Source: Escherichia coli (GTDB lineage Bacteria; Pseudomonadota; Gammaproteobacteria; Enterobacterales; Enterobacteriaceae). Taken from it: a stretch of 64,000 nucleotides of DNA. Made by a program: the position numbers. The DNA lies in assembly GCF_003334385.1 (NCBI RefSeq), contig NZ_QOWN01000017.1; one strand, 5' to 3'. Shown here piece by piece: positions 46,301 through 49,300 of this stretch (position 1 is the first letter of the stretch; each line of letters starts with the position of its first letter).

Positions 46301-49300
46301 TCGACTTACAACCTTTTAACTGACAGCAGGAGAGGCATAATGAAAACGCTGCTGATTATTGACGCTAATCTCGGTCAGGCACGCGCCTATATGGCGAAGA
46401 CCCTGCTGGGCGCGGCGGCGCGAAAAGCAAAACTGGAAATCATCGACAATCCGAACGACGCTGAAATGGCGATTGTTCTCGGTGATTCCATCCCGAACGA
46501 CAGCGCGCTGAACGGTAAAAATGTCTGGCTGGGCGATATTTCCCGGGCAGTTGCGCACCCTGAGCTGTTCCTGAGTGAAGCCAAAGGCCATGCGAAACCT
46601 TACACTGCGCCGGTCGCTGCGACAGCACCAGTTGCCGCCAGCGGTCCGAAACGCGTAGTTGCGGTGACTGCTTGCCCGACTGGCGTAGCACACACCTTTA
46701 TGGCGGCTGAAGCCATTGAAACCGAAGCGAAAAAACGTGGCTGGTGGGTGAAAGTTGAAACCCGTGGTTCTGTTGGCGCGGGTAATGCAATCACTCCCGA
46801 AGAAGTCGCAGCAGCGGATCTGGTGATTGTGGCGGCAGATATCGAAGTGGATCTGGCGAAATTTGCTGGTAAACCGATGTATCGTACCTCTACCGGTCTG
46901 GCGCTGAAGAAAACCGCGCAGGAACTGGATAAAGCGGTTGCTGAAGCAACGCCGTATGAACCGGCGGGCAAAGCTCAAACGGCGACCACTGAAAGTAAGA
47001 AAGAGAGTGCAGGCGCATACCGTCACTTGCTGACGGGCGTTTCTTACATGCTGCCGATGGTCGTTGCAGGTGGTCTGTGTATCGCGCTTTCTTTTGCTTT
47101 TGGTATCGAAGCGTTTAAAGAGCCGGGTACGTTGGCTGCGGCGCTGATGCAGATTGGTGGTGGTTCAGCCTTTGCGCTGATGGTGCCGGTACTGGCAGGT
47201 TATATTGCCTTTTCCATTGCCGATCGTCCGGGCCTCACTCCGGGTCTGATTGGCGGTATGCTGGCGGTCAGCACCGGTTCTGGCTTCATTGGTGGTATTA
47301 TTGCGGGCTTCCTGGCTGGTTACATTGCGAAGTTAATCAGTACGCAATTGAAACTGCCACAGAGTATGGAGGCGCTGAAACCGATCCTGATCATTCCGCT
47401 AATTTCCAGTCTGGTGGTCGGTCTGGCGATGATCTACCTGATCGGTAAACCAGTTGCTGGCATTCTCGAAGGGCTGACTCACTGGCTGCAGACCATGGGG
47501 ACTGCGAATGCGGTTCTGCTGGGGGCGATCCTCGGTGGCATGATGTGTACTGACATGGGCGGTCCGGTAAACAAAGCAGCGTACGCATTCGGTGTGGGTC
47601 TGCTGAGTACTCAAACCTATGGCCCGATGGCGGCGATTATGGCGGCAGGTATGGTGCCACCGCTGGCAATGGGTCTGGCAACAATGGTGGCGCGTCGCAA
47701 ATTCGACAAAGCGCAGCAGGAAGGTGGCAAAGCCGCTCTGGTATTGGGACTGTGCTTCATTTCGGAAGGTGCAATTCCGTTTGCTGCTCGTGATCCGATG
47801 CGTGTGCTGCCGTGCTGTATCGTGGGTGGGGCGCTGACTGGCGCAATCTCAATGGCGATTGGTGCGAAACTGATGGCACCGCACGGTGGTCTGTTTGTTC
47901 TGCTGATCCCTGGCGCTATTACGCCGGTATTGGGTTACCTGGTAGCAATTATTGCCGGTACGCTGGTGGCGGGTTTGGCCTATGCCTTCCTGAAACGTCC
48001 GGAAGTGGACGCAGTAGCGAAAGCAGCGTAATAAAAGGTGTGTTACAGGGCAGAAATTTCCTGTCCTGTAACATTTGATGAGCGCAAAGAGAATGACCGG
48101 TTTGTGAATGTAATTTTATGAATTTAAATGGTTTTATCTTTCAGTAGAAACTTCAAACGTTCATCAAACACTCAGGTTATTTCCTCAAGGGCAGATTATT
48201 TTCTGCCCTTTTTTATTGTTCTGTTCTGTGCATCCCGTCACAAATTCCTCGCTTTTGTAATTCAGGCATTTAATCGCATTTTGTGAGCCTGCTCAAATCT
48301 GCCCATTTTGCCTCTCTGGCGGTAATTTACTTTACGTAAAACATGCATACTATGAGCACATGTTTAAATATGAACACATGTTTAAACCGTCTTTGCAGTA
48401 TCTATATTCTTGTGGATTGACAGGGTTGGTAATTTTTTACCAGAGGACGTGCTATGCGCGAAAAGGATTATGTCGTAATTATAGGTTCGGCGAATATTGA
48501 TGTCGCCGGATATTCACATGAATCATTAAATTATGCGGATTCAAATCCAGGTAAAATAAAATTTACGCCTGGTGGAGTAGGGCGCAATATTGCACAAAAC
48601 CTGGCGTTGCTGGGTAACAAAGCCTGGCTACTGAGCGCCGTAGGCAGTGATTTTTATGGTCAATCGCTGCTAACGCAAACCAATCAATCTGGCGTTTATG
48701 TCGATAAATGCCTGATTGTGCCGGGAGAAAATACGTCGAGTTATTTATCATTACTCGATAATACCGGTGAAATGCTGGTTGCTATAAATGACATGAATAT
48801 TAGCAACGCTATTACAGCTGAATATCTCGCACAGCACGGTGAATTTATTCAGAGGGCAAAGGTCATTGTCGCGGACTGTAATATCAGTGAAGAGGCACTG
48901 GCATGGATTCTGGATAATGCCGCCAACGTACCCGTATTTGTCGATCCGGTTTCGGCATGGAAATGTGTCAAAGTGCGCGACCGTCTAAATCAGATCCACA
49001 CTCTCAAGCCAAACCGCCTTGAAGCGGAAACCCTGAGTGGGATTGCGCTGTCAGGGCGTGAAGATGTGGCAAAAGTTGCTGCCTGGTTCCATCAACATGG
49101 CCTGAACCGACTGGTATTGAGCATGGGCGGCGACGGCGTTTATTACAGCGATATCAGCGGTGAAAGTGGCTGGTCTGCGCCGATCAAAACCAATGTTATT
49201 AATGTTACCGGAGCGGGCGATGCCATGATGGCGGGACTTGCTTCGTGTTGGGTAGACGGAATGCCGTTTGCCGAATCTGTTCGTTTCGCACAGGGATGTT

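What the first reader, a model, noticed from the sequence alone, without database searches (positions are those of the whole stretch)
48040..48217. Two hairpins after fruA bracket a 110-nt AT-rich segment
A first hairpin follows the fruA stop directly (48040-48075). A second, stronger intrinsic terminator (48186-48217, GC stem plus TTTTATT) lies about 110 nt downstream on the same strand, before the psuK promoter region. The likeliest reading is a fail-safe terminator insulating psuK from the highly expressed fru operon. A short independent transcript ending at the second terminator is an alternative I cannot exclude.
Basis: inference. Interest (0 to 1): 0.2.

Follow-up and report, generated by a model that had tools for sequence, protein, structure and literature searches.

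The report
fruA 3' UTR with duplicated terminator hairpin
The two hairpins after E. coli fruA are real, but together they are an ordinary 183-nt 3' untranslated tail: the second hairpin is the operon's true, ancestral terminator, and the first looks like a non-terminating copy left by an old repeat-element insertion.

Summary
The window is E. coli K-12 (reverse strand, about 2.26 Mb).

- **Hairpin 1** (48040-48074) has a 14-bp stem, -21.3 kcal/mol.
- **Spacer** (48075-48186) is 112 nt, 33% G+C.
- **Hairpin 2** (48187-48210) has a 9-bp stem followed by U6.

Hairpin 2 is the main terminator, not a back-up:
- It aligns with the single fruA terminator of Citrobacter, Enterobacter and Leclercia.
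- Its stem and T-tract are invariant in every E. coli allele examined.
- The only published Term-seq 3' end in this region maps to its last U (48214).

Hairpin 1 has a marginal U-tract in K-12, none in the other alleles, and no mapped 3' end.

Hairpin 1 plus the spacer is an Escherichia-specific insertion of about 150 nt. In 1194 genomes (the allele of the B2 strain E2348/69) the spacer is a complete BIME-1 repeat element. At other BIME-1 sites the local terminator hairpin is likewise duplicated on both sides. Two filled/empty polymorphisms show this directly.

An independent small RNA has no support: no promoter, no Rfam match, no conserved structure, poor conservation and no literature.

The finding itself is ordinary. 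The hairpin duplication around BIME-1 is the one interesting by-product.

The parts
48029..48034 (+). fruA stop codon TAA (48029-48031), followed by a second in-frame TAA
48040..48074 (+). Hairpin 1: 14-bp stem and 7-nt loop, with no conserved U-tract. It sits where the ancestral fruA terminator stem sits relative to the stop codon, and is read as the left, T-less copy of a duplicated hairpin.
   Evidence: Fold. Core CAGGGCAG/CTG(C/T)CCTG kept in K-12-type and L003 alleles; the E2348/69 allele has a different stem that still pairs. Tail scores. No Term-seq 3' end.
48075..48186 (+). AT-rich spacer: 112 nt, 33% G+C, single-copy, Escherichia-specific. It occupies the position of a BIME-1 element in 1194 E. 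coli genomes and may be a decayed BIME-1.
48074..48084 (+). Left arm (TTTGATGAGCG) of a predicted 11-bp long-range stem that closes the spacer. It overlaps a short match to the BIME-1 left-end motif (TGATGA..CGCAAA).
   Evidence: The paired columns are invariant across the five alleles, so the stem is neither supported nor refuted.
48158..48168 (+). Right arm (CGTTCATCAAA) of the same predicted long-range stem
48187..48214 (+). Hairpin 2 plus U6: the intrinsic terminator of the fruBKA operon. The published Term-seq 3' end is at 48214 (NC_000913.3 2259536, minus strand).
48282..48297 (+). Context: CRP-like site TGTGAgcctgcTCAAA about 70 nt upstream of the inferred psuK start. The TGTGA half-site is invariant across genera.
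   Evidence: inference from the CRP consensus
48326..48353 (+). Context: psuK promoter (-35 TTTACT, 16-nt spacer, -10 TACTAT). The recurrent gut-adaptive SNP maps to 48328 (T>G on this strand).

Best explanation
Positions 48032-48214 are the 183-nt 3' untranslated region of fruA, the last gene of the fruBKA operon.

**Hairpin 2 with its U6 tract is the operon's canonical intrinsic terminator.** It is the same element that ends fruA about 15 nt after the stop codon in other Enterobacteriaceae. It releases the transcript at 48214 and so separates the fru operon from psuK, which has its own promoter about 110 nt further on.

**Hairpin 1 and the AT-rich spacer are an Escherichia-specific insertion of about 150 nt** between the stop codon and that terminator.

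**Hairpin 1 is probably a second copy of the terminator stem that lacks the U-tract.**
- RNA polymerase mostly reads through it (inferred).
- At most it terminates weakly in K-12.
- It may protect fruA mRNA against 3' exonucleases after cleavage in the AU-rich spacer (inferred, untested).

**The layout is the footprint of a BIME-1 insertion.** The pattern 'hairpin without T-tract, insert, hairpin with T-tract' is what BIME-1 sites look like. In 1194 E. coli genomes the insert here is an intact BIME-1. In K-12-type strains it is a fast-evolving AT-rich sequence, possibly the decayed remains of that element. The spacer encodes nothing of its own.
For: Shown:
1. In relatives where psuK also follows fruA (C. 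amalonaticus, Enterobacter soli, Leclercia), the intergenic region is 277-288 nt against 422 nt in K-12. It has one hairpin, GGGCAGAGAnnnCTCTGCCC plus T7, starting 15-21 nt after the stop. The multiple alignment puts hairpin 2 on that hairpin and opens a gap of about 150-185 nt opposite hairpin 1 plus the spacer.
2. In most of the 79 relatives examined, a stem-plus-T-run hairpin starts within about 50 nt of the stop, usually 9-30 nt. In E. coli the T-tailed hairpin starts at +155 to +186.
3. The hairpin 2 stem and T-run are invariant in all six E. coli alleles while its loop varies.
4. Term-seq (Adams et al. 2021, PMC7815308) lists a 3' end at 2259536(-), which is window 48214. It appears only in the M63-glucose sheet. 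Nothing is listed at hairpin 1.
5. Tail scores are -5.0 to -5.7 for hairpin 2, and -3.1 to -3.7 (K-12), -2.3 (L003) and -1.5 to -1.9 (E2348/69 allele) for hairpin 1.
6. Allele counts: 4231 genomes carry the K-12-type segment and 1194 carry the E2348/69-type, whose spacer is a complete BIME-1. That element matches at least 7, median 26, places per genome.
7. Eight of 18 distinct BIME-1 sites have a flanking direct repeat of the local hairpin scoring 9 or more. None of 306 mismatched-flank controls does. Hairpins 1 and 2 of K-12 share AGGGCAGA, score 8, reached by 0.65% of controls.
8. Filled/empty polymorphisms at ccmH-narP and artJ-rlmC show one hairpin in the empty allele and two copies around BIME-1 in the filled allele.
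9. In the spacer there is no promoter at 9 of 12 or better, no Rfam match, fold z -1.37, and no net covariation.
Against: - The Term-seq peak is weak: 28,731 reads, where the lowest minus-strand values listed are about 23,469. It was seen in one of three conditions, none with fructose. The absence of a peak at hairpin 1 is therefore weak evidence.
- Hairpin 1 in K-12 has UUU after a very stable stem, so some termination there is plausible.
- The K-12 spacer is not detectably a BIME-1. A profile HMM gave no hit even at E=100. A test for the non-REP motifs in the right order gave only p of about 0.02 (K-12), 0.04 and 0.15.
- No 5'-end data could be obtained, so a processed fragment of the 3' UTR is not excluded.
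Confidence: 0.75

Rival explanations
1. Tandem fail-safe terminators. Hairpin 1 would be the primary fruA terminator and hairpin 2 would catch polymerases that read through.
For: - Hairpin 1 starts 9 nt after the stop and has the more stable stem (-21.3 against -15.5 kcal/mol).
- In K-12 it is followed by UUUGAU, with a tail score of -3.1 to -3.7, around or beyond the 5th percentile (-3.09) of random 15-mers.
- It sits where the ancestral terminator sat relative to the stop.
Against: - No Term-seq 3' end at hairpin 1 in any of three conditions, while one is listed at hairpin 2.
- The T-tail is not conserved: TTGGAT in other K-12-type strains, none in the E2348/69 allele.
- At other BIME-1 sites the left hairpin copy likewise lacks a T-tract.
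Confidence: 0.12
2. A small RNA ends at hairpin 2. It would either be transcribed from its own promoter in the spacer or be cut out of the fruA 3' UTR, and would act as a regulator.
For: - The 3' end at 48214 was detected in glucose medium and classed 'orphan'.
- The terminator ends in six U.
- One weak promoter-like match exists (GTAACA, 15 nt, GAGAAT, 48068-48094, 8 of 12), which would give an RNA of about 113 nt.
Against: - That promoter match has a poor spacer, and its -10 is lost in other K-12-type strains (GGGAAT).
- No Rfam family matches.
- The spacer folds no better than shuffles (z -1.37), and the covariation term is unfavourable.
- The stretch before hairpin 2 differs between alleles and is replaced by BIME-1 in 1194 genomes.
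- 'Orphan' in that study simply includes long 3' UTRs.
- No paper pairs fruA with yeiC, and none of those pairing it with psuK or RIL-seq reports such an RNA.
Confidence: 0.06
3. The two hairpins are unrelated. Hairpin 1 and the spacer arose from an insertion that had nothing to do with BIME-1, and the shared AGGGCAGA is coincidence.
For: - The K-12 spacer gives no BIME-1 HMM hit.
- It is single-copy in E. coli genomes and absent from true plasmids and from phages.
- The hairpin 1/hairpin 2 repeat score is only 8.
Against: - In the E2348/69 allele the same site holds a complete BIME-1 exactly between hairpins 1 and 2. Those two hairpins share 18 of 20 positions, including the loop.
- Hairpin 1's core CAGGGCAG starts 15 nt after the stop, which matches the Citrobacter terminator in both sequence and position.
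- Hairpin duplication is the norm at BIME-1 sites.
Confidence: 0.12

Closest known systems
Rho-independent (intrinsic) transcription terminator
   Same: Hairpin 2 has a G+C-rich 7-9 bp stem, a short loop and a U6 tract. A mapped RNA 3' end lies in the U-tract. The stem and tail are conserved while the loop varies.
   Different: It lies 155 nt after the stop codon, against roughly 9-50 nt in most relatives. The A-tract that makes many of the orthologous terminators look bidirectional (AAAAGGGC...GCCCTTTT) is absent here.
Tandem or fail-safe terminators
   Same: Two stem-loops in series on one strand at the end of an operon.
   Different: The upstream element lacks a conserved U-tract and has no mapped 3' end. 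The downstream element is the ancestral, primary terminator, not a back-up.
BIME-1 (also called RIP or RIB): two inverted REP sequences around an IHF-binding linker, found in the 3' regions of E. coli transcription units
   Same: - The position is the same, between stop codon and terminator.
- In 1194 E. coli genomes this exact site holds a full BIME-1.
- The hairpin/insert/hairpin-plus-T layout is shared with 8-10 of 18 other BIME-1 sites.
- Short matches to the BIME-1 end and linker motifs occur in the right order.
   Different: The K-12 spacer has no REP sequences, is 33% G+C and single-copy, and is not found by a BIME-1 profile. It is at best a remnant, not a member.
3'-UTR-derived small RNAs that share the parent mRNA's terminator (CpxQ, SroC and similar; from general knowledge)
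   Same: A long 3' UTR ending in an intrinsic terminator with six U.
   Different: There is no conserved candidate seed, no evidence of a stable fragment or Hfq binding, and no conservation beyond one allele class of one species.

Membership tests
Intrinsic terminator (hairpin 2) | Stable G+C-rich stem-loop | tested here: met
   9 pairs, 5 G-C, -15.5 kcal/mol, z -4.49
Intrinsic terminator (hairpin 2) | U-rich tract directly after the stem | tested here: met
   T6 then ATTGTT; tail score -5.0 to -5.7; 7 T in the first 8 after the core stem
Intrinsic terminator (hairpin 2) | RNA 3' ends map in the U-tract in vivo | tested here: met
   Published Term-seq 3' end at 2259536(-), which is window 48214, the last U. 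One condition only, low read count.
Intrinsic terminator (hairpin 2) | Termination independent of Rho | tested here: inconclusive
   The same study flags a Rho-dependent region at 2259533(-), score 3.5. With bicyclomycin the downstream reads (97) exceed the upstream reads (43), so the extra signal probably comes from psuK-promoter transcripts.
Intrinsic terminator (hairpin 1) | Stable stem-loop | tested here: met
   14 pairs, -21.3 kcal/mol, z -4.57. Stems also form in the L003 (-25.3) and E2348/69 (-29.3) alleles.
Intrinsic terminator (hairpin 1) | U-rich tract directly after the stem | tested here: not met
   K-12 is marginal (UUUGAUG, -3.1 to -3.7). L003 scores -2.3 and the E2348/69 allele -1.5 to -1.9, against a random mean of -2.05.
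Intrinsic terminator (hairpin 1) | RNA 3' ends map after the stem in vivo | tested here: not met
   No 3' end with coordinates 22596xx in any of three conditions. This is weak evidence because fru expression is low in those media.
BIME-1 (K-12 spacer) | Two inverted REP units (y and z1) | tested here: not met
   No hit for a BIME-1 profile HMM at E up to 100 in the window, although the same model finds the copies at 17.6 kb and 54.9 kb
BIME-1 (K-12 spacer) | Conserved linker and end motifs in the right order | tested here: inconclusive
   Chained profile score 36.6 against shuffles 30.1 +/- 2.7: 6 of 300 reach it for K-12, 11 of 300 for AR0061, 46 of 300 for L003
BIME-1 (K-12 spacer) | Many copies per genome | tested here: not met
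   One place per genome. The maximum of 2 is consistent with insertion-split matches, such as the IS1 split seen in one strain.
BIME-1 (spacer of the E2348/69-type allele, L002) | REP y, linker, REP z1 with conserved flanks, and many copies per genome | tested here: met
   148 nt match at 85-87% to at least 7, median 26, places per genome, and align with independent copies
Independent small RNA gene | Own promoter or transcription start | tested here: not met
   No match at 9 of 12 or better. One non-conserved 8 of 12 match. No TSS coordinates for this region were found: two supplement sets had no matching entries, one held no supplements and one paper is not held.
Independent small RNA gene | Conserved sequence or structure, or a known family | tested here: not met
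   No Rfam match; spacer fold z -1.37; covariation term +2.04; not conserved between alleles
Independent small RNA gene | Stable RNA species or chaperone binding | not testable with these tools
   Needs a northern blot, RIL-seq or CLIP data

The most novel reading that the evidence does not exclude
The two hairpins are the two copies of a target duplication of about 20 bp. It would have formed when a BIME-1 element inserted between the stem and the U-tract of the ancestral fruA terminator. This would be a general signature of BIME-1 mobility that I could not find described:
- The targets are intrinsic-terminator hairpins.
- The whole hairpin is duplicated.
- The left copy loses its U-tract.

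The K-12 AT-rich spacer would then be the decayed element.

I could not find this in the REP/BIME papers I could read. The classic papers (Gilson 1991, Boccard and Prentki 1993, Bachellier 1997) are not held and may already describe it.
Probability: 0.3. Interest if true: 0.5.

Novelty: new member of a known kind. Interest (0 to 1): 0.25.

Why it matters
**For the locus.** The practical gain is modest.
- The fruBKA transcript should be annotated as ending at 48214, with a 183-nt 3' UTR.
- psuK is insulated from the fru operon by a conserved terminator and is driven by its own promoter. That promoter is where the recurrent gut-adaptive mutation falls.

**More generally.** How REP and BIME elements spread is still unsettled.
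- A whole-hairpin duplication at terminators, seen in filled and empty alleles, gives a concrete and testable prediction about the insertion step.
- It also explains why some E. coli 3' UTRs carry an extra stem-loop without a T-tract, which terminator predictors may miscall.

Tried and rejected
- **Rfam scan of 46000-50000, both strands, E up to 10:** only chance matches.
- **Promoter scans at 9 of 12 and 8 of 12:** nothing credible in the spacer.
- **Small ORFs:**
  - The 52-codon + strand ORF 48128-48286 runs through the terminator, and its ATG is missing in the L003 allele.
  - A 48-aa minus-strand 'hypothetical protein' (WP_001300063.1) is annotated across the terminator in some genomes. 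No minus-strand ORF of 30 aa or more is listed there in K-12, and it looks spurious.
- **'K-12 spacer is a decayed BIME-1':**
  - Pairwise alignment gave z 2.3 (global) and not significant (local).
  - The profile HMM found nothing.
  - The motif-chain test gave p of about 0.02.
  - I keep this only as a possibility.
- **Spacer as a mobile or foreign element:** the only plasmid-collection hits are megabase-size records that look like mislabelled chromosomes, and there are no meaningful phage hits.
- **Conserved RNA structure in the spacer:** not supported.
- **Adaptive mutations in the hairpins:** the mouse-gut evolution data hit only position 48328 in the psuK promoter.
- **Transcript data that gave nothing:**
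  - The Cappable-seq and SMRT-Cappable-seq supplements had no matching entries.
  - No supplements are held for Dar and Sorek 2018.
  - Thomason 2015 and Boccard and Prentki 1993 are not held.
  - No Term-seq 3' end exists at the narP BIME-1 site to show how left hairpin copies behave.
- **Literature searches** for fruA or yeiC with sRNA, RIL-seq or terminator: nothing relevant.
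Full report
**Where this is.** The window is E. coli K-12-like DNA, the reverse complement of MG1655 around 2.26 Mb. The gene order on the + strand is fruB-fruK-fruA and then psuK-psuG-psuT. fruA ends at 48031 and psuK starts at 48454. A window position w corresponds to NC_000913.3 position 2307750 - w. RefSeq annotates nothing in the 422-nt gap.

- Hairpin 1 (48040-48074) is a 14-bp stem with a 7-nt loop, -21.3 kcal/mol, z -4.57.
- Hairpin 2 (48187-48210) is AAGGGCAGA-TTATTT-TCTGCCCTT followed by a T run to 48214, -15.5 kcal/mol, z -4.49.
- The 112 nt between them are 33% G+C, against 55.7% in fruA.
- Hairpin 1 has the more stable stem. Hairpin 2 is the better terminator only because of its U-tract.

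**Which hairpin terminates.** Three lines of evidence point to hairpin 2.

First, comparison with other genera. I fetched fruA loci from 80 species genomes. One of these is an E. coli genome with a third allele of this region, called L003 below.
- In most of the 79 relatives examined, a stem-plus-T-run hairpin starts within about 50 nt of the stop, usually 9-30 nt.
- In Citrobacter, Enterobacter soli, Leclercia, Silvania and Klebsiella indica that hairpin reads GGGCAGAG-NNN-CTCTGCCC plus T7.
- Where psuK also follows fruA (C. amalonaticus, E. soli, Leclercia), the intergenic region is 277-288 nt. It aligns with the E. coli region from hairpin 2 onward.
- E. coli alone carries about 150-185 extra nucleotides, namely hairpin 1 plus the spacer.

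Second, variation within E. coli. The hairpin 2 stem and T-run are invariant in all six alleles aligned, while its loop varies.

Third, published transcript ends. Term-seq (Adams et al. 2021, PMC7815308) lists a 3' end at 2259536 on the minus strand. That is window 48214, the last U of the tract. No entry exists anywhere near hairpin 1.
- The peak is weak and appears only in the M63-glucose sheet. From general knowledge, that fits partial relief of Cra repression of fruBKA in glycolytic conditions.
- 'Orphan', the class given to this end, explicitly includes long 3' UTRs.

Tail scores agree with this picture.

| Element | Tail score |
|---|---|
| Hairpin 2 | -5.0 to -5.7 |
| Hairpin 1, K-12 | -3.1 to -3.7 (marginal) |
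| Hairpin 1, L003 allele | -2.3 |
| Hairpin 1, E2348/69 allele | -1.5 to -1.9 |
| Random 15-mers (mean) | -2.05 |

So hairpin 2 is the primary, ancestral terminator. Hairpin 1 is at best a weak terminator, and only in K-12.

**psuK has its own promoter downstream.**
- The recurrent A>C mutation at 2257444 in mouse-gut evolution experiments (PMC7518454, PMC9509342) maps to window 48328 once the 1978-nt offset between genome versions is applied. That offset comes from gene coordinates I recalled for the older genome version. The reference base at the mapped position agrees with it.
- On this strand the mutation changes TTTACT to TTGACT, 16 nt upstream of TACTAT.
- TTTAC, a TGTGA half-site and the Shine-Dalgarno region are invariant across genera.
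- No adaptive mutation falls in the two-hairpin segment.

**Where hairpin 1 and the spacer came from.** E. coli has two deeply diverged allele classes here.
- 4231 genomes carry the K-12-type segment.
- 1194 carry a type found in the B2 strain E2348/69.
- PsuK is only 88.5% identical between the two classes, close to the 85% between E. coli and C. amalonaticus.

In the E2348/69-type allele, hairpin 1 has a different sequence but still pairs (-29.3 kcal/mol). Hairpin 2 is conserved. The spacer is exactly one BIME-1 element, a repeat present at a median of 26 places per genome.

Looking at other BIME-1 copies, I found the same layout: a site-specific hairpin without a T-tract, then BIME-1, then a near-identical hairpin with a T-tract. 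I checked this on copies collected with one metagenome scan.
- Eight of 18 distinct sites have a flanking direct repeat scoring 9 or more. None of 306 mismatched-flank controls does.
- The ccmH-narP site (window 17.6 kb) is polymorphic. The empty allele has one hairpin plus its T-tract. The filled allele has two copies around BIME-1.
- The artJ-rlmC site shows the same polymorphism.
- At fruA, the other genera supply the empty state.
- Hairpins 1 and 2 of K-12 share AGGGCAGA, score 8, reached by 0.65% of controls. CAGGGCAG in hairpin 1 starts 15 nt after the stop, as in Citrobacter.

I therefore read hairpin 1 as the left copy of a duplicated terminator hairpin.

**What the K-12 spacer is.** It is not a recognisable BIME-1.
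- A BIME-1 profile finds nothing in it.
- It is single-copy in E. coli genomes.
- The only plasmid-collection matches are megabase-size records that look like mislabelled chromosomes, and the only phage matches are 25-nt chance hits.
- A test for the non-REP motifs of BIME-1 in the correct order gives p of about 0.02 for K-12, 0.04 for another K-12-type strain and 0.15 for L003.
- Decay of an old BIME-1 is plausible given the age of the alleles, but it is not shown.
- The segment evolves quickly. Most genomes are only 90-99% identical over these 199 nt, which is lower than for the whole intergenic region or the end of fruA.
- It tolerates an IS1 insertion in one isolate.

**No sign of a separate gene.**
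- No Rfam match.
- No promoter at 9 of 12 or better. The single 8 of 12 match has a 15-nt spacer, and its -10 is lost in related strains.
- The spacer folds no better than shuffled sequence (z -1.37), and the alignment fold has an unfavourable covariation term.
- None of the literature searches turned up an RNA here.
- I could not obtain 5'-end data, so a processed 3'-UTR fragment remains possible but unlikely.

**Verdict.**
- The finding is a real but ordinary feature: a long fruA 3' UTR ending at the conserved operon terminator.
- The 'fail-safe' ordering is not supported.
- The independent-transcript alternative has no support.
- The origin of the layout, a terminator hairpin duplicated around a BIME-1 insertion, is the one result that may interest specialists. 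Its novelty could not be checked against the older literature.

Noticed in passing
window 17590-17800 (ccmH-narP); L087 (artJ-rlmC); L002; L088; L092; L094; L095; L096; L110: BIME-1 elements are flanked by two copies of the local terminator hairpin. The left copy has no T-tract and the right copy has one. Eight of 18 distinct sites score 9 or more, against 0 of 306 controls. Empty alleles at ccmH-narP (L210) and artJ-rlmC (L211) carry a single hairpin. This suggests a target duplication of about 17-23 bp at terminator hairpins. I did not find it in the papers I could read.
   Followed up: yes
window 44211 (NC_000913.3 2263539, minus strand): A strong published Term-seq 3' end (213,000-431,000 reads, all three conditions) lies 44 nt upstream of the fruB start codon, after GCCAGGTTGGCGC plus T7. 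It sits between two sequences that look like Cra operators. This suggests premature termination, or a stable leader RNA, in the fruB 5' UTR. It is far stronger than the signal at the operon's end.
   Followed up: no
window 48282-48386: The psuK control region holds several elements:
- a CRP-like site TGTGAgcctgcTCAAA;
- the promoter TTTACT, 16 nt, TACTAT, with the recurrent gut-adaptive SNP at 48328 creating TTGACT;
- two 17-nt direct repeats, ATGA(G/A)CACATGTTTAAA (48352-48368 and 48370-48386), just after the -10.

The repeats are conserved as a palindrome-like motif in other genera and look like an operator for an unidentified regulator.
   Followed up: partly
window 48005-49395 compared with L002 and L003: The last 27 nt of fruA, the intergenic region and psuK exist as deeply diverged alleles within E. 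coli. PsuK is 88.5% identical between K-12 and E2348/69, and 95.5% between K-12 and L003. The split is 4231 against 1194 genomes. This points to ancient alleles or import from another lineage.
   Followed up: partly
window 3771-4549: A tandem array of 6.9 copies of a 113-bp unit made of REP-like palindromes, 96% matches. It resembles a BIME-2-type cluster.
   Followed up: no
window about 48107, seen in L084 (strain 203740): One natural isolate has an IS1 inserted in the AT-rich spacer, right after ...GACCGGTTTGTG. The spacer therefore tolerates disruption.
   Followed up: partly
window about 48124-48270, minus strand (L083 493-639): Some RefSeq genomes annotate a 48-aa 'hypothetical protein' (WP_001300063.1) on the opposite strand, across hairpin 2. 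No minus-strand ORF of 30 aa or more is listed there in K-12, so it is probably a spurious call.
   Followed up: partly
window 48217 (NC_000913.3 2259533, minus strand): The same Term-seq study lists a Rho-dependent region here, score 3.5. With bicyclomycin, downstream reads rise from 28 to 97 while upstream reads stay at 43-44. This fits Rho acting on psuK-promoter transcripts rather than on fruA read-through.
   Followed up: no
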